This document shows positions 8,834 through 53,340 of a stretch of DNA of 64,000 nucleotides, piece by piece. The DNA comes from the human T2T-CHM13v2.0 reference genome, Homo sapiens: NCBI RefSeq assembly GCF_009914755.1, contig NC_060936.1; one strand, given 5' to 3'. The translations under genes and the position numbers were made by a program. The notes under the pieces are model-generated. The model had not been told where the DNA came from and did not search any database. It worked only from the letters and a program-made list of their open reading frames with translations. Each line of letters begins with the position of its first letter. The stretch's first letter is position 1.

Positions 8834-9269
8834 TGTGTTATGCCATTCTTGCATTGCTATAAGGAAATACCTGAGACTCGGTAATTTATAAAGAAAAGTG
8901 GTTTAATTGGCTTACTGTTCTGCAGGCTGTACGGGAAGCATGGTGCTGGTGTCTGCTCAGCTTCTGGTGAACCCTCAGGGAGCTCACAATCATGGCAGAA
9001 GGCAAAGGGGGAACAGGCACATCACATGGCAAAAGCAGGAGCAAGCGAGAGAGAGAGAGAGAGGAGGAAGAGGTGCCACACACTTTCAAATGACCAGATC
9101 TCATGTAAACTCAGAGTGAAAGCTCATTTATTACCAAAGGGATGGCCCAAGCCCTTCATGAGGGATCCACTCCCATAATCCAAACACCTCCCACCAGGCC
9201 CCACCTCCAACATTGGGAATTACATTTCAACATGAGAGTTAAGTGGGGACAAACATCCAAACTATGTCA
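8834..9269 (-). mobile_element. MST-type MaLR solo LTR
   Basis: cattcttgcattgctataaggaaatacctgaga ... ggggacaaacatccaaactatgtca. Confidence 0.9.
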
Positions 9270-15027: not shown

Positions 15028-15420
15028 TGAGATATCGTTTGGACTGTGTCCCCACCCAAATCTCACGTTGAATTGTAATCCCCAATGTTGGAGGTGGGGC
15101 CTGGTGAGAGGTTATTGGATCATGGGGGTGATTTCTCATGGTTTAACACCATCCTCTTTGGTGCTGTTGAGTTCTTGTGAGATCCGGGTGTTTAAAAGTG
15201 GCACCTCCCCGCTCTCTCTCTCGCTCCTGCTCCAGCCACGTAAGACGTGCCTGCTTCCCCTTTGTCTTCCACCATGACTGTAAGTTTCCTGAGGCCTCCC
15301 AAGAAGCAGAAGCTGCTATGCTTTCTGTACAGCCTGCAGAACTATGAGCCCATGAAACCTCTTTTCTTTATAAATTACCCAGTCTCAGGTCTATATAGCA
15401 GTATAAGAACAGACTAATAC
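15028..15420 (+). mobile_element. MSTA-type MaLR LTR
   Basis: gtttggactgtgtccccacccaaatctc ... gaacagactaatac. Confidence 0.9.
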
Positions 15421-16446
15421 AACCCACAAGGTAAAGAATTGGCATAAAGGGGAGAGAGAACAACTCTGCCAGAGGGAGGAAAAGCCTTTTCCAGTGAGGA
15501 ACTGGTGAGCTGGGCATAAAGTGTGCAAGGAGTCTTCCAGGCAGGTACAAGTACAGAAAGCATTTTAGGCAGAGGGACAACATTTATAAAAGACTCTTCC
15601 CCTCCGGATGCTCACCATCTGTCCAGGGAGGTGGGTGGGTAAATGTTGTTGAGTGTACATACATTGGTGAAGGGATAAATACTCTGCTATGAGACTGAAG
15701 TCAGGAACATTTAACTGAGGCTGAGGAGACCAGGAAAGGTGCTACCTTAGCCAAGTTTTGAAGATTGTGTGAGTCACAGAAGGGCATTCCAGGCACAAGG
15801 GACAGCATGAAGGCTTGAGAAAGAATGTTGTATAAAGTAACTCAGAAGTGCAGGCATGTGGAACTCAAGACAGGATAAGAAGACTTGTATTGAGCAGGGT
15901 GCTACATGCTTTCATGCATTATCTCAGCTGATCCATTCTAACAACTCAATGGGGTAGTTTGTCATGGTTATTAATGCTGCCTAAATAGAAAAACCCTGAA
16001 ATTTCAGGGGCTTAATACAATAATGAAACTGAAAAATAACCCATTAAGTTCAATGAGGGTCAGGCAGTCTGCCTACCTCAACCAGCTATGCCATCCTGAA
16101 CATCTCCAAGGTGGTCACAGCAAGAAAAGAGAAAGATGATGGAAGGTCACAGGGCTCACATCAACTCCACTTCCAGTCAATTGGCCAGAAATAGCCACGT
16201 GACCCTGACTTAACTTCAGGAAAGGCTGAGAAATCTAGGGAAGTGTGTGGGTATTTGGTGACTAACTATTGCAGGTAGAAATCTTTATTATATTCTCATT
16301 CTGTCAGAAAAGTTAAGTTTTTTGCCCAAAGCCACACGACTAATGAGCAGTGTTGCCAAGAGTCTCATACAATTGACTCTTAAACCTACATCTGAGCCAC
16401 CATGGTGTATTGCCAGATCATACAGAGCTTTCTATTGTAAGACTGG

Positions 16447-18695: not shown

Positions 18696-21017
18696 ACCTC
18701 AGAGCAGCTCAGAGTGGTGACTTACAATATCAAACAGTGGCAGAGAACCCAGACTCTGGAAGGCAGCCATCTGGACTGGGTTCCTTGGAATTAGACTCTG
18801 AGATGGATATTTGTACGCAGCTTTCCTTGGGAGCATTTTCAAAACCAATACCTGTAAGAAAATGAGAGAAGCAGGGTTGGGCAGAGGTGATGAAGGAGCT
18901 ACACAGGACGAATTTGATCTTGCAGAGAACCCTTGAGTTGGAAAGGGACTTCAAGTTGCCTCAAATATAGGCAAAGGGTTTTGACCAGGCCATTAGTCCA
19001 CACATTGACCAGATATTGGTTATGGGCTAACCCCAATAAAGGATCTAACTTTGGGCAAGGCAGCTCCCTTTGGTCAAGAACAATGTCCAGAGAGGGACAC
19101 ACCTGACAGCCACCAGGAGCCAGCTCTCCCAGAGGCTGAAGGAGTGAGCACTTCAGTTCTGAACAGGAAATCTGGGTGGCGCATGAGGCATCCATGACAC
19201 TGTCTGGTACCAAGGTCAGTTCAGCTACTTACTCGCTATGAGATCTTGGTTAGTTTCTTAATCCTTCTGTGCCTCAATTTCCTCAACCTTAAAGTGGGAA
19301 TAATAATGCACTTACCTCAAACAATTGTTATGAGAATTGGATGAGTTAAAACTGCTAGAAACACACCTGACACAGAGTCAAAACTTCATAAGAATAGAAG
19401 GTCGAAACCTCACGACAACCCAAGTCTTCTGATTTCCAGTCCTGTGCCATTTCTTCAAGTCATTCATTTCATCAAGGCTCCTCCATTCTCATTCTGTTTC
19501 CAGTGTATGTAGTACATGAGCATTGTGTGCTGCAATGTGCTACCCATAACTATGTTGCACCTTTACAAAAGTATGTATTAATTTCGTATGACCAAAACAA
19601 GGGTATTTAACAAAACAACCTGGAAATTTCAGTGGTTTGCAGCCATCTATTACTCACTCACTTACTGACTTGTAGGTTTGGCTAATCTGGGCTAGGCTTG
19701 GCTGGGCCTGACTCCTAACTCCATGGCTGGGCCCAGGCCTTTCCACGTCTCTTGTCTTTCTTAGATTAGCAGTACTCACAGCATATTCTGTTCATAGTGA
19801 AAGACAAGAGCTCAAGAGACCACACCTAAATATGCAAGCACATTCTAAGCTTCTGCTCACATCTGTGGTCATCCCATTGGCTAAGGCAATCCAGGTGGCT
19901 AAGCCCAAAGTCAAGCACGTGCACCAAGGAGAGAAGGTACCCATAGAGGTTGAGGCAAGGGAAGGACTGGAAATTTGCTGAAAAATAATCTTCCATACAG
20001 CCTGATGAACAAAGATTTTGTAATAGAAAAGAAGATACTCATGACCAGAATCTTAAGAAGAAAAAAAGCTGCAGGTGAAAGCCTTTACTAAATACTTATT
20101 ACTAGTATGTCTAGGCAGATCCTTCTAGCCTCTGTCTGACTCAGTCTCCTCATTTGCAAAACAGTTATAATGCTCCCCTTCTATTTAATTCATAGAAATG
20201 GGATATCATCATTCTCATCCACGCATCATACTTTTTTGTGGAATACTGCAGCAAGTCTTTGTAATAAGTTGGCATTCTCTGCCATCTAGCATGCTTATAA
20301 TTCTTTATTGAGCATTCCAGCATGGGACTGATCCCCCAGAACTGTCATAAAAAGGCATGAGAATTGCAGAATTACTTCAGTAGATAGGAGTGGCTAGAAT
20401 CTAATGTGCTATAGATTTTTTAAGCATTGGGTCTTCATCTCATAGACTTCTATCTACCCTGACAGCACTTGAGTATATATAAGCCCTCCATAAAATCTAG
20501 TTGAATTTTCTGTTTTCAAGGTCAGTTAAATAGAGGATGGTACCAACACTGCTGAGACACCAATCAGACAATGCGCTCTGCTAAAAGCCTAATGCAAGCC
20601 TCTTTGCCTGTGGTAGTTACTAAATACCCAGCTCAGCACTTTTGCTCCTTAATTCCAAAACCTTCTATTTGGGTACTACCTAGCAGCATCAAATTGTTTA
20701 AAATAAAATAAAAGAATGATGGCTCAGCAAACTGTAGCTTTTGGTCCAAAAATTTATATTTCTAATTCATTTAGTTACAGCAAGACAGATGCCAAACTTT
20801 TATGGCTTTTTAGTCTAATCAAATTTGTGTACACAAAGATGAAATCCTCCTCTCTCTACTTGCCAGGAATGAGGCATAATCTTTATTCTAATAAAAGCTT
20901 TATTGCTACAAGTATCACCTAGTTCTTTAAAGACCCTCTGAAATCATTTTGATCTCAGGAACACTTTTTCATACCTCTTCCAGATTGATCTTATAAAAGT
21001 ACCATAGGCAGATAAAT

Positions 21018-27769: not shown

Positions 27770-29180
27770 CTTGTGTTACGCAAAGATTTCTCCCAAACTA
27801 TAAAAAGCACAAACTACAAAAGAAGAAAATTGTTAAACTGGTCATCATCAAAATTAAACACTACTACTATTTGAAAAACACTCTTAAGAAAATGAAAAGT
27901 TTTCCAGTCAGAAATGACAACCACAGATGGAATTAATCATACAGATAAATGACTGTATCAGGATTTCATTTGCTTGTTAGTCCACAGAGTTGCCCAGAAT
28001 CCTACATTTATTCATAAGAGAAAATATTGATTAATTATTGGTCATTCCTCATAAGTGTAGCTGTTGATGTGTGCATCTGATTATTACTTTTTTAATTTTA
28101 TGAAAATTGTGTAAAATTACATTTTTTTCCAGGGGAGAAAAAAACATCAAACAAAAAGAGAAACATCTAAATCATCCTTTCTGTTCTTTTTCAGTTTTTA
28201 ACCTCTTTTAGGTTTTCCCCTTGCAGAAACTACAGAAATATTCCCTTAGAATAAAATTGTATATTTGTAAAAAAAAAAAAAATGAAAAGACAAATCAGTT
28301 AGACTAGGTAAAAATATTTCCAAACACAAAAAAAGAGCTTGTATCTTGAATATATATTTAAAACTCTTACCCAATAATAACGACTCAATAATAAAAATAC
28401 AACTCATATTAAGACAAACAACCTAGTGAAAAATGAGCAAAAGATCTGGACACCTCATCAGAGACGATATACAAATGGCCAGCAAGCATGTGAAAAGATG
28501 CTCAAAATCATTACTCATCAGGAAAATGCAAACTGAAACTGCAAGGTACCTCTACATACCAATACAATACAAAATCAAAATGATCGACAACACCAAGTGT
28601 TGGCAAGGATACGGAGCAACTAGACCCTCATACAGTCACGTTGGAAAACAGTATGGAAGTTTCTAGTAAAAGTAATAATGCATCTACCATACAACACACC
28701 AATCCAAATCCTAGGTGTTTACACAAAAGAAACAAATACCTATGTTTACACAGAGGCCTCTACATGAACGTTCATAGCAGCTATATTGAGTAGTCAAAAA
28801 TAGGAAACAACCCAAATACCCAACTGGAGAACAGATAACCAAATAATGCTATATATGTACAATGGAATATTCCTCAGCAATAAAAAGAATGAATTACTAA
28901 CACATGTATGCAAAAATATACATATTCCACATTCCATCTATATAGCATTCTAGAAAAGACAGTGCTATAAGCATAGAAAACAGACTAGTGGTTGGCAGGC
29001 AGTGGTGGTAATGGATGGGAATGACTGAAAAGGAGTATACAGGAACTCTTGGGGGTGATGGACATTTCTGTATCTTGAGAGTAATGATGGTTAGATGACG
29101 ATACATTTGCCAGAACTCATTGAACTATACGCTTAAAAAGGAGAATTCATTTTAAGTAAATTATTCTGCAATATTTTTAA
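27770..29180 (+). mobile_element. Old L1M (L1MC/ME-like) 3' fragment hosting a retrocopy
   Basis: ORF2 C-terminal-like text is continuous across the insert at 27900-28282. Confidence 0.75.
27900..28282 (+). pseudogene. 5'-truncated processed retrocopy (3'-UTR-like fragment, parent unidentified)
   Basis: AATAAA 28250-28255, poly(A) 28269-28282, TSD aaaatgaaaag, TT|AAGA L1-endonuclease-like site. Confidence 0.8.
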
Positions 29181-29422
29181 AGTGCTACAGTATCCTTCAC
29201 TCTCTGCAGCATCTACAAGGGTTTCTGGAGTAGCCCAGCCTCACGTGCTAAGCACTGTGAAAATTCCCCAGCACGAAGTCTTTAAGGGCAGGGCTGTAGT
29301 TTACTCCTTTCAGCTCATTCCTAGAACCAGCTTCCCAATAGGAACATAATACATACTTGCTGGCTTTATTATTCTGCATCCAATCATTCTATGGGATAAG
29401 ATAAAAATGACAAACATACAGG

Positions 29423-29575
29423 TAAGTTTTCCCAACCCTTTTCCCTGTCTTTGTGGGGTATTGGGCAGAACTGCCCTGCATAGGAACTCCACATGGGATG
29501 GTGACAAATTGGTCAATTTGATCCTCTTTCTTAATAATAAATATGGATTTATTATTATAAGTTTTCCCAACCCTT
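29423..29575 (+). repeat. Insertion carrying an inverted copy of 31503-31607 between 18-bp direct repeats
   Basis: taagttttcccaaccctt at 29423-29440 and 29558-29575; 29446-29550 matches revcomp(31503-31607) at 101/105. Confidence 0.95.
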
Positions 29576-30248
29576 AACCCTGATAAATCAGGTTCTGATT
29601 CTGAAAACTGTTTAGTTCCTTCCCCTCTTCTCCTTCTGAACAAGATTAAGGTTCTTGGGAGGCAGAATGAGGAAAAGGCACTGAGGAATGAATGACCTAT
29701 TCTTGTGAAACTGGCAGTGAGGGTAAAGAGGGGCTTCTCTTCCCAGCAGGCATTGAGTGAAGAAGGATCCTACACCTGCAGACTATGGAGAGCCCAGGGC
29801 AGAGCTGGGAGAAGTCGGTTAGAGCTGGATGAGGAGTGGGCTGGAGAGAGACCGGGTGTGGGCCAAGGAGAGTGAGAGAGGGTCCTTCTGTGGAAGGAGA
29901 GTGACAGGCCTCAGGGTTGCCAGATGCTACAGAATATGAGAAAAAGGAGATCTTAGTAAAACTTGTCTTCAAGTTCTACATTTGATTTGTATATGATCTG
30001 AATTCCTGTTTGTACTATTCTTTGAATATGGCCCCACTGCTGAATGAACCATAAAAGTCTTGACTTCAAGATGATCATAAGTGCAACAAACACATATTAA
30101 ACACTTTCTTGGGCTCCTACATTTTACTGGCCACACAGGGGAGACAAAAATATATAAAAGACAATACTAGAGACACTTGATTAGGTAAGAGATGAAACAT
30201 AATCAATAACATTTGTAAAGTCATTAACTACTTTCAAAATCTTAGTAT

Positions 30249-30662
30249 GTGTATTAGTCCATTCTTGCTTTGCTATAAAGAAATACCTGAGACTGGGTAA
30301 TTTACAAAGAAAAGAGATTTAATTGGCTCACAGTTCTGCAGGCTGCATAGGAAGCAAGGTGCCAGCATCTGCTCAGTTTCTGGGAGGCCTCAGGGAGCTT
30401 TTACCTGTGGCAGAAGACAATGCAGGAGCAGACACATCACATAGCAAGAGGGGGAGCAAGGGAGAGAGAGGGGGGGTGAGGGGTGCCATACACTTTTACA
30501 TGACCAGATCTCACAAAAACTCACTCACTATCACAAGGATAGCACCAAGCCATGAGGCATCTGCCCCCATGACCCAAACACCTCCCACCAGGCCCTGGCT
30601 CCAGCATTGGGGATTACATTTCAACATGAGATTTGGGTGGGGACAAATATCCAGATTATATT
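30249..30662 (-). mobile_element. MSTB-type MaLR LTR
   Basis: tgtattagtccattcttgctttgctataaag ... ggggacaaatatccagattata. Confidence 0.9.
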
Positions 30663-31047
30663 GGTGTACTTGATACATTATGATTTTATTGAACCCTCTT
30701 AGGAACTCTAAAGTAGACAGGACAGGCCAATTCATTTTTATCTAAACTAAATGATCTGACAGTGGCTGACATTCAGCTCAGCAGCAAGAGTCAATCTGAA
30801 TCTAAGTCTTGAGAACTCCAAAGTCTGTTTTCTTTGTTCGCTCTGCAATTTCTTCTCTCTGGCATGAAAAGAAACATATAACACAAGACAGAGACCCAGA
30901 AGTCGAGGCCCAGTGTCTGATGTATAAAATGGCTTTTCAGGATTACAAGAGACATGCCCAGTTACTTTCAGTGCAAGGATATCTCACAAAAATTCAAGAG
31001 CATATTAAGTCTCAAGTCATCCATCTCCCTTCTGGCTAGACAGTCAC

Positions 31048-31398
31048 TGATATGGTCTGACTGTGTCCCCACCAATATAAATTTGAATTGTACCGCCCAG
31101 AACTCCCACATGTTGTGGGAGGGACCCAGGGGGAGGTAATTAAATCATGGGGGCTGGCCTTTCTCGTGCTATTCTCATGATAGTGAATAAGTCTGACGAG
31201 ATCTGATGGGTTTATCAGGGGTTTCCGCTTTTGCTTCTCTCTCATTTTCTCTTGCAGTCACCAGGTAGGAATGGCCTTTCGCCTCCCACCATGATTCTAA
31301 GGCCTCCCCAGCCAGGTGGAACTGTAAGTCCAATTAAATCTCTTTTCTTCCCAGTCTTGGGTATATCTTTATCAGCAGCATGAAAATGGACTAATACA
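31048..31398 (+). mobile_element. THE1-type MaLR solo LTR
   Basis: tgatatggtctgactgtgtccccacc ... aatggactaataca; TSD gtcac. Confidence 0.95.
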
Positions 31399-31494
31399 GT
31401 CACTCTTGGTCTCAAAGATTTGGCTACACCTCAGAGCTCATGGAACACTGCACATATCTCAGAAAATATTGGAGTGTAACTTCCATTTATGTGT

Positions 31495-31725
31495 ATATCT
31501 CAAAATCCATATTTATTATTAAGAAAGAGGATCAAATTGACAAATTTGTCACCATCCCATGTGGTGTTCCTATGCAGGGCAGTTCTGCCCAATACCCGAA
31601 AAAGACATCCGGCTTCCGTGGCTTTTTTAGAAGAGGGTTGTAGGTGTGGTAAGCAGTGGTGAGTGGGGAAGGCCTGTGACTTCAACGTGGATGATAAAAG
31701 TAATCCTGCTATTGTGCTATCTTTC
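31495..31725 (-). other. Candidate terminal exon (stop 31711-31709, poly(A) signal 31517-31512)
   Basis: Acceptor tatttgttatttcag|G; AATAAA on the minus strand ~210 nt later; 3' end approximate. Confidence 0.45.
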
Positions 31726-32904
31726 CTGAAATAACAAATATGCAGTCTTGTTATTTCCTTTGGCACAACGTAATCCTACTACCTCATGCGCTCTCACATT
31801 TTTGTCTTAAATCCTTTCAGGCACCATTGGATTTTTACAGTACTTATTTTTAATTCTCCTCACCCACCCACTATTCTTCACTTCATCCTCTCAGCTTTGA
31901 GAGTACGTTGATTTAAATTTAGTAGGGGAAGAAAAACATGCATGCTGTTATTTTTTAAATAACACTGAACCCCTTTCAAAGGCAGCATTCATGTGCAGGT
32001 ATCACTTATCATTAAGGGATTATAAAGGTTCTGAAAGAAATATTTTAAAAACTGACAAAAATTACTTGTGGGTTATATTATTTACTATATTTTAAAGTTT
32101 CATGATTTTTCATGAAACTATCTGGTTTGTAACTCAAAGGTTGAGTGTTATCAAGATTTAAAAATACATAATCTTTAATATAGTACAGACAAATGAAAAG
32201 TCATGCCTGCTGTATTCAGAGTAATTTAATATAATTCAATTCTGTAACACCATCATAAAGAAGGATTAACAGTTCAACAGCTGCACCGTAAATATAGCAA
32301 TTATTGTTGTTGAAATTCAGGATTCTATAAACTACCCCCTCACACTGAACTGTATCAAAGCAAATAGAGAACAGTTGTTGACTCAATACAGGATTAGGAA
32401 AGGATTTTTGCCATTACATCACTTAGATCATAATCCTTATAATAAAGTCAACCATTGCAGTGTTTGCAAACGATCATAGGACTGACCTTTTTACCTAAGA
32501 TGAAAGAACCCATCTGGAGAGATCACATTACAGCAGCAGCCTTTGTTGTCACTGTCATATCCCATCTCAGCATTTCATGGTAGGCATTCCCATCTTGTAT
32601 GAGTCAGTTTATCAGGGCTTACTAGGACTAGATTTAAGGGCTGAGAATTAGTAGGCAACCATTTACATTATGACTTGGAGGATTCCGGAAAGGATTTCCT
32701 TCACCAAACATATCTCCTCTATAGTCTATTAGGATATTTGAAATCCAGGCATTCTCAACTTTCTGACATTTGTATCGCTGAACAGGCTAGTTGGTTCTTT
32801 TTCCAAAGTACAAGACTTGCAGAGCTGGCCCCTGACATGTGATGAGGCCCCTAATCCAGTCATGTATGCCTTTTCTTTTTCTGCTACACAAAGGTGACAT
32901 ACTT

Positions 32905-33145
32905 AGAGAAAAAAGGCAAAGGAGCAGAAAAAAATGTGAATAATGACTGAAAACTTACATTTGATGAAAAACATTAATCTTCATGTCCAAGAAGCTCAAC
33001 ATCCAAGAAGCTCAACAATCTCTAAGTAGGATAAACTGAAACAGATCCACACCTAGGCACATCAAAATCAAACAAAGGATAAAGAGAAAACTCTAAATGT
33101 AGCAAGAAAAAAACAATTCTTCACCCAAGACCCACAATAAGATTA
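32905..33145 (+). mobile_element. Old L1M ORF1 fragment
   Basis: tccaagaagctcaac ... cacacctaggcacatc ... aaagagaaaa typical of L1M ORF1. Confidence 0.6.
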
Positions 33146-35133
33146 CCACGCTTTTTTTCACAAGATGGTGGATTACACCCTTTTAGCATGCCTCAGTCAC
33201 TTGGAAATAGCAAGATAGTGCATAAAGATCAACTCTGTGGCATTAATTCAAGAAGGAAAATGGGGATTCACCAGAATCATGAAGGACACCTCAGATCCCA
33301 GAGAGGAAAATGTGGGCAAACGGACCCCATGAAAGCATCTGGCTGAGAAAAGTGAGTGAAACCCCAGTATGTGAGACAGGCAGACAGCCTCCCTCTGTTA
33401 CTTACCTTTCCACTGGGGATCCGAGCAACCCAGGCCAAGGGAGGACACCTTGTTTATCCTAAGCCTTGCAGCCAACCTGGGGAGGAGCTTGGAGATGCTA
33501 TGAGAAAAAAGACACTGGGGAACACTACAGGCATTTTCCCAGACCTGGGACCAAAAGCAGGATGTGTTTTAACCCAGGGACATAAAGTCAGCCATTCTTT
33601 AGCAACCTGGCAGTGTAGCCATGCAGGCATTTTAGTCTCAGGTCAGAGACTGGAGTGCCTGCTCTAGAGTGGCATAGGGGTCTCCAGAGCTAGAACTATG
33701 AAAAGTACCTCAGCAGTAGGCACTGGAATTTTGTTATTCCCCATTGCAAGACTAGGATGGGATGGGAGCTGCTACCACTGCAGTTTCTCCTGAGCAGCAA
33801 GACTTGCAGCCAGGGTCAGCTTAGTGACTTGGAACCAGTCTGTGCACGCCATTTCTGGGTGCTCCATCCTGTTCCCCTGAGATCATGGTGCAGTGGGGCC
33901 CTATCCACTCTAGCCACAGGCAGAAATCCAGGCATTTGGAGTACCTGTTTGCCTGGACCAGCAGCCTGAGCTGCCCCACCCTTCATAGACATAGATCAAG
34001 ATATAGTGGGGCCTTTTCTGCTCCATGCCCAGGCAGATCTCCAGGCATTTGGAGGACCCATTTGCTTAGTTCAGCAGCTTGAGCCACCTCAACCTTCCTG
34101 AGTATAGATTGTGGTGAAACGGGGCTTTCTCTGCTCCACAATAGGCAGATCTCCAGGTATTCAAAGTACCCACTCACCTGGATTGGCATTCTGACCTATG
34201 CCATTCTTCCTATATAGAGATCCTGGTGAAGCAGGGACCTCTTCACTCCACACCCAGGCAGATCTCCAGGCACCTGGAGTGCCCCCTCTCCTGGATAAGG
34301 AGTTTAGGCCATCCCCCATCCCTGTGCAGTGAACTTGGGGCTAAAGAGGTTTCCCAGCTCCATGCCTAGGTGCACCTCTAGGTACTTGATGGCTGCTCAC
34401 TGGATTCTCCCTCAGCACTTGTGCTTGTCCCTGGAGCCTGTAGGCAGACTCGCCTGGTCCAGCTCCATCCATCATGTCCCCCACTCACCAGGGGCTAAAC
34501 AGGAAGCTCAGACCACTGTGCACTCCATGGATCAGCCCATTTACCTGAAGCAACAGGGAGCTTCTCCCAGTAAACAAAGGTCAAGTATATCCCCAAATTG
34601 GCTGCAACCAGCTCATACCTATAAGTGCCATCTACAGGCTTAGAGTTTGAACCGCACAGCCCAGTATAAAAGTTGCCATCAGAAGTGCATACAGCTATAG
34701 AAGCAAAGCCAAACAACTCTACTCAACATTCTCTATAGTTATACCTGCTGGGGAGATGGAAAAAAGGAAAGAGAAAGAAAAAATAATAATAATATAGAGA
34801 AAGAAATAAAAAGAAAATTTCTACCTGCTAGAAAATAAATACAAAATTATAAGTGTCAGCATCTCAGATGAGAAGGAACCAGGGCAAGAATTCTGGTACC
34901 ATGAAAAATATGAATGTAGTGATACCATCAAAGGATTGCACTAGCTCTCCAGCAATTGTTGCTAACCAAAATTGAAACTAAGAAATGACAGATAAAGTAT
35001 TCAAAGCATGGACTAGGAAAAAAAAAAACGCAATGATATCCAAGACAAGGTTAAAAATCAACACAAAGAAACTTCTAAAGCAATCTCTGGGAAATGAAGG
35101 AAGAGATAAACATCCTAAAAAGAAATTAATCAG

Positions 35134-43024: not shown

Positions 43025-43487
<463 letters not shown>

Positions 43488-53030: not shown

Positions 53031-53340
53031 TTTTGTTGTTTTTTGTTTTTTGTTTTTTTTTGAGACAGAGTCTCGCTCTGTCGCCCAGGCTGGAGTGCAG
53101 TGGCGCAATCTCGGCTCCCTGCAAGCTCCGCCTCCTGGGTTCACGTCATTCTCCTGCCTCAGCCTCCTGAGTAGCTGGGACTACAGGTGCCCACCATCAC
53201 GCCCAGCTAATTTTTGTATTTTTAGTAGAGACGGGGTTTCACTGTGTTAGCCAGGATGGTCTCGATCTCCTGACCTTGTGATCCACCCGCCTCAGCCTCC
53301 ACAGTGCTGAGATTACAGGCATGAGCCACCATGCCCGGCC
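53031..53340 (-). mobile_element. Alu (AluY/Sc-like)
   Basis: Reverse Alu; TSD aagatctttttgtt. Confidence 0.96.

What the first reader, a model, noticed from the sequence alone, without database searches (positions are those of the whole stretch)
29423..31607. Local inverted copy of the candidate transcript's 3' end, with 18-bp TSD and fold-back junction
Seen: 29446-29550 is the reverse complement of 31503-31607 (105 bp, 4 mismatches). It sits between exact repeats taagttttcccaaccctt (29423-29440, 29558-29575). The copy stops 9 nt past the donor's AATAAA. Instead of poly(A), it carries attatta, forming the hairpin taataataaat-atgg-atttattatta, as if the 3' end folded back and self-extended. 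The left junction has filler ttccc, which repeats part of the TSD. Established: 7-20-bp TSDs typify L1-mediated reverse transcription, whereas snap-back and locally templated fillers typify polymerase-theta end joining. Inference: either a locally inserted micro-retrocopy of the neighbouring RNA (RNA-templated repair), or a DNA-templated insertion at a staggered break. The mix of signatures is unusual.
Basis: partly seen in the sequence, partly recalled or inferred. Interest (0 to 1): 0.8.

Follow-up and report, generated by a model that had tools for sequence, protein, structure and literature searches.

The report
Local inverted templated insertion, flank duplicated
A 105-base piece of unique human DNA was copied in reverse orientation into a site 2 kb away, most likely by a DNA polymerase that hopped between templates during replication or break repair, which is a known and fairly ordinary kind of mutation scar rather than a copy of an RNA.

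Summary
29446-29550 is the reverse complement of 31503-31607 (105 nt, 4 mismatches). Exact 18-mers flank it at 29423-29440 and 29558-29575. There is a 5-nt filler (29441-29445) and a 7-nt filler (29551-29557); the second completes an 11-bp hairpin. The refuting test fails: in the whole T2T genome the insert has only two places, itself and the donor, and the donor region and both target flanks are single copy.

Best reading (0.65): a DNA-templated, multi-step template-switch insertion of the MMBIR / Pol-theta kind. A + strand 3' end at 29440 copied the donor's + strand, snapped back for 7 nt, then rejoined 18 nt back.

Supports:
- the template lies 2 kb away and is inverted;
- there is no poly(A);
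- the primer end matches the donor flank 10 of 11 (chance about 0.9%);
- all 4 mismatches are transversions, which looks like synthesis error.

The RNA micro-retrocopy version fails on poly(A), on the nick site at its priming end, and on proximity. An L1-endonuclease-like CCTT/AA site at the other junction keeps a hybrid reading open. No primate genomes or 3'-end data were on hand, so age and empty site remain untested.

The parts
29423..29440 (.). Left copy of the 18-bp flank duplication. Its 3' end on the + strand (..CCCAACCCTT) is the inferred primer.
   Evidence: Exact repeat of 29558-29575. In the pre-insertion sequence the + strand reads ACCCTT|AACCCT here.
29441..29445 (+). 5-nt filler ttccc, with three competing parses. 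(a) Copied from 29429-29433 with TT microhomology. (b) Part of a 25-nt imperfect duplication. (c) Its first 3 nt copied from the donor flank 31632-31630.
   Evidence: (D1).
29446..29550 (+). Inverted copy of 31503-31607: 105 nt, 4 mismatches, all transversions.
   Evidence: Only two places genome-wide.
29551..29557 (+). 7-nt snap-back filler attatta, the reverse complement of 29532-29538.
29532..29557 (+). Hairpin with an 11-bp stem and 4-nt loop, left by the fold-back of the nascent 3' end.
   Evidence: -5.9 kcal/mol, z -4.5, 0 of 200 shuffles as good.
29558..29575 (.). Right copy of the 18-bp flank duplication.
31503..31607 (-). Donor (template): single-copy DNA continuous with its flanks, in the first intron of the listed XR_007083400.1 transcript of LOC105369719.
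   Evidence: Annotation table supplied with the finding.
31608..31629 (-). 22 nt of donor flank that lie between the microhomeology block and the start of the copied tract. They are absent from the copy.
   Evidence: Alignment A1.
31630..31640 (-). CAACCCTCTTC: a 10-of-11 match (7 exact) to the primer end plus filler, 29433-29443. A possible annealing site for the first template switch.
   Evidence: Chance 0.85-0.9% in random 60-mers of the window; the test was chosen post hoc.

Best explanation
This is a one-off, DNA-templated insertion made by serial template switching. It is the kind called microhomology-mediated templated insertion (MMBIR/FoSTeS) when the main step is replicative, and Pol-theta-type primer-template switching for the short fillers.

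Inferred steps:
1. A free + strand 3' end arose at ..CCCAACCCTT (29440). It could have been a stalled nascent strand, a break end or a nicked strand; which one is not known.
2. It left its template and, possibly after a 5-nt local slip, annealed by microhomology to the + strand of the same chromosome about 2 kb ahead. It copied that strand from 31607 back to 31503 with a low-fidelity polymerase.
3. It came off in an A+T-rich stretch, folded back on itself (attt on aaat) and added 7 nt.
4. It rejoined the original duplex 18 nt behind its point of departure, or at the other end of an 18-nt staggered break whose overhangs were filled in. Either route gives the 18-bp flank duplication.

Shown: the anatomy, the uniqueness of the pair, and the hairpin. 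Inferred: the polarity, the order of steps, the enzymes, and DNA rather than RNA as template.
For: - Only two places genome-wide for the insert, and single-copy donor and flanks. So it is a local duplication, not a dispersed repeat.
- The template is 1952 nt away and inverted. [quoted passage not shown] About 100 germline events per person were reported, with up to five templates and imperfect microhomology tolerated at the 3' end (PMC8421209, passages).
- There are three separately templated segments of 5, 105 and 7 nt.
- The snap-back hairpin is far better than shuffles. It requires a DNA strand of + polarity with a free 3' end at 29550, so synthesis ran from left to right.
- The primer end plus filler matches the donor flank 10 of 11, with 7 exact. 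This occurs in 0.85% of 20,000 random 60-mers of the window. A 7-mer ending within 2 nt of the primer end is found in 0.9% of 200,000.
- No poly(A).
- All 4 mismatches are transversions, and 2 of them lie in the first 10 nt (P 0.048). With transitions at about two thirds of neutral substitutions (recalled figure), 4 of 4 transversions has a chance near 1%. The rate of 4 in 105 resembles the roughly 1 in 30 error rate reported for Pol-theta templated inserts (PMC5068794, passages).
- Flank duplications arise without L1 when overhangs of staggered breaks are filled in (PMC8355091, abstract).
Against: - 105 nt copied from 2 kb away is outside the usual Pol-theta range. In C. elegans, inserts are mostly under 25 bp and about 85% are primed within 10 bp of the break (PMC5068794). 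It is also outside the 100-bp template search used for MMB-TI (PMC8421209, section 5).
- At the exact junctions, microhomology is only 0-2 nt. The 10-of-11 match sits 22 nt away from where copying starts and needs an unexplained skip.
- The left junction has three competing parses, in a low-complexity C/T context that inflates chance matches.
- The + strand site CCTT/AA at the primer end resembles the L1 endonuclease site. TT|AA occurs at 0.59% of window positions.
- The copy ends 9 nt after an AATAAA. Only 2.4% of - strand positions lie 5-30 nt after AATAAA or ATTAAA.
- All the significance tests were chosen after seeing the data.
- No empty site was seen, because no primate genome was on hand.
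Confidence: 0.65

Rival explanations
1. L1 ORF2p-initiated hybrid. The L1 endonuclease nicked the + strand at CCTT/AA, and an 18-nt staggered second break gave the duplication as in target-primed reverse transcription. The freed 3' end was then extended, not on a polyadenylated RNA, but on a local template annealed by microhomology. That template was either nearby single-stranded DNA or a + strand RNA, for instance a read-out from the + oriented LTR that ends 105 nt before the donor.
For: - The nick context ACCCTT|AACCCT sits on the strand and side that TPRT geometry requires for left-to-right synthesis. TT|AA occurs at 0.59% of positions and YYTT|AA at 0.21%.
- 18 bp lies within the usual L1 duplication range (established knowledge; TSIP class 1 definition, PMC5110952).
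- A + oriented MaLR-type LTR lies at about 31049-31398 (the family name is recalled).
Against: - Only 2 of the 4 consensus T's are present.
- ORF2p makes little or no TPRT product with tails of 15 A or fewer, or with non-A tails, and poly(A) is required for L1 and Alu mobility (PMC10830416, passages).
- No + strand transcript is listed in the RefSeq table given with the finding.
- In the cited experiments the locally templated pieces accompanied L1 or cDNA inserts, and none is present here.
Confidence: 0.15
2. One reading: a micro-retrocopy of the last 105 nt of a - strand transcript that ends at 31503 after AATAAA, inserted by L1 machinery or captured as cDNA at a break.
For: - AATAAA lies 9 nt before the end of the copy, and only 2.4% of - strand positions lie 5-30 nt after such a hexamer.
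- There is an 18-bp duplication.
- A plausible 3' splice site (a pyrimidine run then AG) lies near 31727 on the - strand, upstream of the donor.
- Class 1 TSIPs do arise from intronic and unannotated RNA (PMC5110952).
Against: - No poly(A) at all. Class 1 TSIPs carry 10-40 A.
- The nick site at the AATAAA end is AACTTA|CCTGTA.
- attatta cannot be templated by that RNA, because its complement is absent from it (reading).
- 9 nt falls just short of the usual 10-30 nt from signal to cleavage (abstract).
- No RefSeq exon lies there.
- The source is 2 kb away, whereas trans retrocopies land anywhere in 3.1 Gb.
Confidence: 0.05
3. RNA-templated break repair without L1. A nascent or chromatin-bound RNA from the locus served as the template for a repair polymerase with reverse-transcriptase activity at a nearby break.
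For: - Proximity is expected if a tethered nascent RNA is used.
- TSI patches at induced breaks fell more than three-fold with RT inhibitors (PMC5110952).
- The locus lies inside a lncRNA gene.
Against: - The polarity inferred from the hairpin and the left-junction match needs a + strand RNA, antisense to the only annotated gene.
- Nothing in the 105 nt (no splice junction, no tail) marks an RNA origin.
- DNA explains the same facts with fewer assumptions.
Confidence: 0.07
4. A multi-step history or an artefact. Examples: an older 18-bp tandem duplication later hit by an unrelated insertion; a larger inverted duplication trimmed by deletions; or an assembly error.
For: None specific. The 22-nt gap between the microhomeology block and the copy could be a later deletion or insertion.
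Against: - The insert sits exactly between the two 18-mers with clean single-copy flanks.
- The arms differ at 4 sites, so this is not a collapsed or mirrored read.
- The inverted LTR pair between them is centred about 300 bp away from the centre of this pair and is only 78% alike, so there is no shared palindrome.
Confidence: 0.08

Closest known systems
MMBIR-linked templated insertions (MMB-TI) in human germline and cancer genomes (Osia et al. 2021, PMC8421209)
   Same: The insertion lies near its template and in inverted orientation. There are several template switches in one event. Microhomology or imperfect 'microhomeology' is present at the priming end. It is fixed as a harmless germline variant in non-coding DNA.
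   Different: Their search looked for templates within 100 bp and used short reads. Here the template is 1952 nt away and the insert is 117 nt in all. The best microhomology is offset by 22 nt from the start of copying. An 18-bp flank duplication accompanies the insert.
Polymerase-theta-mediated end joining with templated inserts and snap-back synthesis (PMC4912351, abstract from the search listing; PMC5068794, passages)
   Same: The short locally templated fillers (5 and 7 nt), the fold-back extension of a 3' end, repeated priming-extension-dissociation, and a high error rate.
   Different: Typical inserts are under 25 bp, are primed within 10 bp of the break, and come with deletions. Here there is a 105-nt tract from 2 kb away and a duplication instead of a deletion.
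Short-range template switch mutations (four-point model; Loytynoja and Goldman 2017, PMC5453318; Walker et al. 2021, PMC7954356; both seen as search-listing abstracts only)
   Same: A transient switch to the opposite strand nearby creates an inverted copy, and thereby a hairpin-capable repeat.
   Different: Those events are described as short range and usually replace sequence. This one spans 2 kb, adds sequence, and returns behind its departure point.
Class 1 templated sequence insertion polymorphisms and L1-mediated processed retrocopies (PMC5110952)
   Same: A flank duplication of L1-like length, an AATAAA near one end of the insert, and a unique non-repeat donor.
   Different: There is no poly(A). 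The endonuclease-like site is on the wrong side for the AATAAA end. The donor is local rather than distant.
Small tandem duplications from fill-in of staggered break ends (Schimmel et al. 2021, PMC8355091, abstract)
   Same: It gives an L1-independent origin for a short direct duplication of the flank at a break with overhangs.
   Different: Those products are plain tandem duplications. Here 117 nt of templated DNA lies between the two copies.

Membership tests
L1-mediated retrocopy / class 1 TSIP | Target-site duplication of at least 5 bp | tested here: met
   Exact 18-mers at 29423-29440 and 29558-29575.
L1-mediated retrocopy / class 1 TSIP | Non-templated poly(A) of 10-40 A at the 3' end of the insert | tested here: not met
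   The insert ends ..atggattt + attatta, then the duplication. There is no A run on either strand at either junction.
L1-mediated retrocopy / class 1 TSIP | Polyadenylation signal 10-30 nt upstream of the tail | tested here: inconclusive
   AATAAA lies at 29536-29541 and the homology ends 9 nt later, but there is no tail to measure from.
L1-mediated retrocopy / class 1 TSIP | Insertion at a TTTT/A-type endonuclease site on the strand that primes at the RNA 3' end | tested here: not met
   At the AATAAA end the site is AACTTA|CCTGTA. The L1-like ACCCTT|AACCCT is at the opposite junction.
L1-mediated retrocopy / class 1 TSIP | Donor is transcribed and ends at a used cleavage site | not testable with these tools
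   No expression or 3'-end data were on hand. The RefSeq table given with the finding lists no exon ending near 31503.
Class 2 TSIP (patch at a double-strand break) | No target-site duplication; microdeletion, microhomology or untemplated bases at the junctions; distant donor | tested here: not met
   An 18-bp duplication is present, the donor is 2 kb away, and both fillers can be templated locally.
MMBIR/FoSTeS-type templated insertion (MMB-TI) | Insert lies near its template and in inverted orientation | tested here: met
   1952 nt apart, reverse complement, and the only two places in the genome.
MMBIR/FoSTeS-type templated insertion (MMB-TI) | Microhomology or microhomeology at the switch junctions | tested here: inconclusive
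   At the exact junctions, 0-2 nt. There is a 10-of-11 match of the primer end to the donor flank, but offset by 22 nt. The snap-back seed is 4 nt.
MMBIR/FoSTeS-type templated insertion (MMB-TI) | More than one template switch in one event | tested here: met
   Three segments with different templates: 29441-29445, 29446-29550 and 29551-29557. That they arose in one event is inferred.
MMBIR/FoSTeS-type templated insertion (MMB-TI) | Dependence on replication or break-induced replication factors | not testable with these tools
   This needs experiments.
Pol-theta end joining (TMEJ) templated insert | Short insert (mostly under 25 bp) templated within about 10 bp of the break, usually with a deletion | tested here: not met
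   The main tract is 105 nt from 2 kb away, with a duplication and no deletion. The two short fillers alone do fit.
Pol-theta end joining (TMEJ) templated insert | Snap-back (reverse-complement, same-end) templating | tested here: met
   attatta completes an 11-bp hairpin; 0 of 200 shuffles fold as well.

The most novel reading that the evidence does not exclude
The event is a hybrid of retrotransposon and repair chemistry. An L1 ORF2p endonuclease nick at CCTT/AA, with an L1-type 18-nt stagger, freed a 3' end. That end was extended without any poly(A) template, on locally available nucleic acid annealed by microhomology: single-stranded DNA at the fork, or a + strand RNA read out of the adjoining LTR. 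If so, 'orphan' L1 endonuclease scars with locally templated fillers would be a hidden class of germline variant that neither retrotransposon callers nor template-switch callers are built to find.
Probability: 0.15. Interest if true: 0.6.

Novelty: new member of a known kind. Interest (0 to 1): 0.3.

Why it matters
By itself it is a neutral scar in an intron of an uncharacterised lncRNA. Its value is as a clean, fully resolved example of a germline templated insertion that is larger and farther from its template than current callers look for. MMBSearch searches within 100 bp, and the template-switch models are short range. It also shows that an 18-bp 'target-site duplication' and a nearby AATAAA are not enough to call retrotransposition.

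It raises one testable question: do such poly(A)-less local inserts start at L1 endonuclease nicks?

A side effect: any - strand pre-RNA of LOC105369719 would carry two arms able to form a 105-bp duplex (-174.5 kcal/mol). That is a possible editing or processing substrate. This is speculation.

Tried and rejected
- Dispersed-repeat explanation: rejected. The first look found 2 candidates and both were scored, namely self and donor. The donor region 31399-31800 gave the same 2. Each flank gave 1. The tool warns that its counts are lower bounds and that very common words are skipped.
- Larger palindrome that includes the two LTR pieces between the arms: rejected. The LTR pieces are only 78% alike over 91 nt and are centred about 300 bp from the centre of the 105-nt pair.
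- Known structured RNA: 0 Rfam matches at gathering score in 29000-32000.
- Empty site in other primates, polymorphism in human haplotypes, and poly(A)-site or strand-specific RNA data: not available with these tools, so dating and RNA usage were not tested.
- Dating from arm divergence (3.8%): set aside. The 4-of-4 transversion pattern and the clustering near the start suggest that at least some differences are synthesis errors.
- Right-to-left polarity (- strand primer ..ACTTA extended first by taataat): considered less likely. It needs a strand switch inside the donor's quasi-palindrome before the long copy, and no microhomology beyond AAAA was seen by eye at that end.
- Three paper calls failed on term format (two find look-ups, one search). 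Searches were re-sent with corrected terms. After, only the outline of that paper was read.
Full report
**What is there**

- 29446-29550 is the reverse complement of 31503-31607: 105 nt with 4 mismatches, 1952 nt apart (pair I1; 96.19% identity, E 1.6e-45).
- The insert sits between two exact copies of an 18-mer, at 29423-29440 and 29558-29575.
- Between the left 18-mer and the copy lie 5 nt, ttccc. They repeat 29429-29433 inside the 18-mer.
- Between the copy and the right 18-mer lie 7 nt, attatta. They are the reverse complement of 29532-29538.
- As a result, 29532-29542 and 29547-29557 form an 11-bp hairpin with the loop atgg. As DNA it folds at -5.9 kcal/mol (z -4.5); 0 of 200 shuffles fold as well.
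- The copy ends 9 nt after an AATAAA.
- In the 64-kb window only 2 inverted pairs reach 90% identity over 60 nt or more. This is the better one; the other is a 307-nt pair.

**Is it a dispersed repeat?**

No.
- The window's own assembly (3.1 Gb, 24 contigs) could be searched. The 117-nt insert has two places, itself and the donor (2 candidates, both scored).
- The donor region 31399-31800 finds only itself and the copy.
- The 241 nt left and the 243 nt right of the insert are each single copy.
- The tool warns that its counts are lower bounds and that it skips very common words. Even so, nothing suggests a repeat family.
- The donor is continuous with its flanks, and the copy is bracketed by the duplication. 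So the direction is donor 31503-31607 to copy 29446-29550.

**Surroundings**

Both arms lie in the intron between exons 18726-18851 and 32487-34823 of the - strand lncRNA LOC105369719, according to the annotation supplied with the finding. The donor is about 880-985 nt downstream of the 5' splice site at 32487. No listed exon ends near 31503, so the 'candidate transcript' is not annotated. A pyrimidine run plus AG near 31727 on the - strand could serve as an acceptor.

Between the arms lie two LTR-like pieces in opposite orientation: 30250-30659 (- sense) and about 31049-31398 (+ sense). They have relatives at 8834-9265 and 15047-15421. I recall them as MaLR (THE1/MST-type) LTRs; no tool named them. 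They are only 78% alike over 91 nt, and their centre is about 300 bp from the centre of the 105-nt pair. They are therefore not part of one palindrome with it. No Rfam family matches 29000-32000.

**Polarity**

The hairpin filler means that a DNA strand of + polarity had a free 3' end at 29550, folded back on aaat/attt and added 7 nt. This places the start of synthesis at the left junction. The primer was the + strand end ..CCCAACCCTT (29440), and the template was the + strand of the donor, read from 31607 to 31503.

The alignment of the two regions adds a second pointer to the same polarity.
- On the - strand the donor flank reads CAACCCTCTTC at 31640-31630.
- This matches the primer end plus the first filler bases, CAACCCTTTTC at 29433-29443, at 10 of 11 positions with 7 exact.
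- 22 nt (31629-31608) are then skipped before the copied tract starts.
- A match this good occurs in 0.85% of 20,000 random 60-mers of the window.
- A 7-mer ending within 2 nt of the primer's 3' end occurs in 0.9% of 200,000.
- I chose this test after seeing the match, and the context is low-complexity C/T sequence, so it is suggestive only.

The left junction has three parses that I cannot separate:
- (a) an 18-nt duplication plus ttccc copied from inside it, with TT microhomology;
- (b) a 25-nt duplication with two adjacent errors (TT for AA) and TG shared with the donor (D1);
- (c) annealing at the donor flank, with a 22-nt skip.

All three are template-switch readings. The opposite polarity is formally possible, if a strand switch occurred inside the donor's quasi-palindrome. 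It needs more steps.

**RNA or DNA?**

Against it:
- There is no poly(A) there.
- The nick site at that end would be AACTTA|CCTGTA.
- attatta has no template in a - strand RNA.
- The class 1 TSIP definition asks for 10-40 A, a signal 10-30 nt upstream, and a TTTT/A site (PMC5110952; abstract and two of four parts read).
- Purified ORF2p makes little or no product on templates with 15 A or fewer, or with a non-A tail (PMC10830416, passages).
- A trans retrocopy has no reason to land 2 kb from its source. Local templating is what replication and repair template switching gives.

In favour of RNA there is only the AATAAA position. 2.4% of - strand positions in the window lie 5-30 nt after AATAAA or ATTAAA. 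That hexamer is itself part of the A+T-rich palindromic stretch where the nascent strand came off and folded back.

**The mismatches**

All four are transversions: copy G, G, T, G against donor T, C, A, T at 29453, 29455, 29488 and 29511. Two of them lie in the first 10 nt (P 0.048). With transitions at about two thirds of neutral substitutions (a recalled general figure), 4 of 4 transversions has a chance near 1%. Four in 105 is close to the roughly 1 in 30 error rate reported for Pol-theta templated inserts in C. elegans (PMC5068794, passages). I therefore read at least some of them as synthesis errors, and I do not date the event from the 3.8% divergence. Without an outgroup they cannot be polarised.

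**Mechanism**

Most likely (0.65) this is a DNA-templated, multi-step template-switch insertion.

It matches the published signature of MMBIR-linked templated insertions: near the template, inverted, with microhomology or imperfect microhomology, and with several templates. These occur as germline variants at about 100 per person (PMC8421209, passages and section 5).

The two short fillers and the snap-back match Pol-theta behaviour (PMC4912351, abstract in the listing; PMC5068794).

The event differs by size and distance. That Pol-theta work describes inserts mostly under 25 bp, primed within 10 bp. The MMB-TI caller looked only within 100 bp.

The 18-bp duplication needs no L1. It follows either from a return 18 nt behind the departure point, or from fill-in of an 18-nt staggered break (PMC8355091, abstract).

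A fork model fits the strand use. A nascent + strand stalled at 29440 switches to the + strand, which is the lagging-strand template of a rightward fork, 2 kb ahead. This is inference.

**What keeps a bolder reading alive**

In the pre-insertion sequence the + strand reads ACCCTT|AACCCT exactly at the primer end. That is CCTT/AA on the strand and side that target-primed synthesis requires. TT|AA occurs at 0.59% of window positions and YYTT|AA at 0.21%. Cells expressing L1 gave three L1 insertions with extra sequence templated from DNA near the site, and breaks at ORF2p sites without inserts (PMC11702581, preprint, passages).

An L1-endonuclease-initiated, poly(A)-independent local templated insertion is therefore possible (0.15). 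A + strand RNA read out of the + oriented LTR that ends 105 nt before the donor would be a conceivable template. Nothing shows that such an RNA exists.

**Verdict**

It is a new, unusually large and distant member of a known kind of germline mutation scar. Age, empty site, polymorphism and transcript usage remain untested, because no primate genomes, human haplotypes or expression data were on hand.

Noticed in passing
window 29431-29447 and 29566-29585: The target site is a degenerate telomere-repeat-like tract (CCCAACCCTTAACCCTGA; on the other strand GGG-TTAA-GGG-TT-GGG). This low-complexity context inflates chance microhomologies at the left junction. Whether it favours stalling or breakage is unknown.
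   Followed up: no
window 30250-30659 (- sense) and about 31049-31398 (+ sense): Two LTR-like repeat pieces in inverted orientation lie between copy and donor. They are 78% alike over 91 nt at their outer ends. Relatives lie at 8834-9265 and 15047-15421. I recall them as MaLR THE1/MST-type; no tool named them. The + oriented one ends 105 nt before the donor.
   Followed up: partly
window 31727-31740, - strand: A pyrimidine run followed by AG (ttgttatttcag|G) lies upstream of the donor and of the AATAAA at 31512-31517. It is a possible unannotated terminal exon of about 225 nt. No RefSeq exon is listed there.
   Followed up: no
window 29446-29550 with 31503-31607, as - strand RNA: In an unspliced LOC105369719 transcript the two arms could pair into a 105-bp duplex with 4 mismatches (-174.5 kcal/mol), with a 1952-nt loop. 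That would be a possible substrate for RNA editing or processing. Untested.
   Followed up: partly
window 43025-43331 and 53036-53340: The only other inverted pair in the window with at least 90% identity: 307 nt at 91.2%, 9.7 kb apart. It has the length typical of Alu elements and falls in stretches listed as masked repeats.
   Followed up: no
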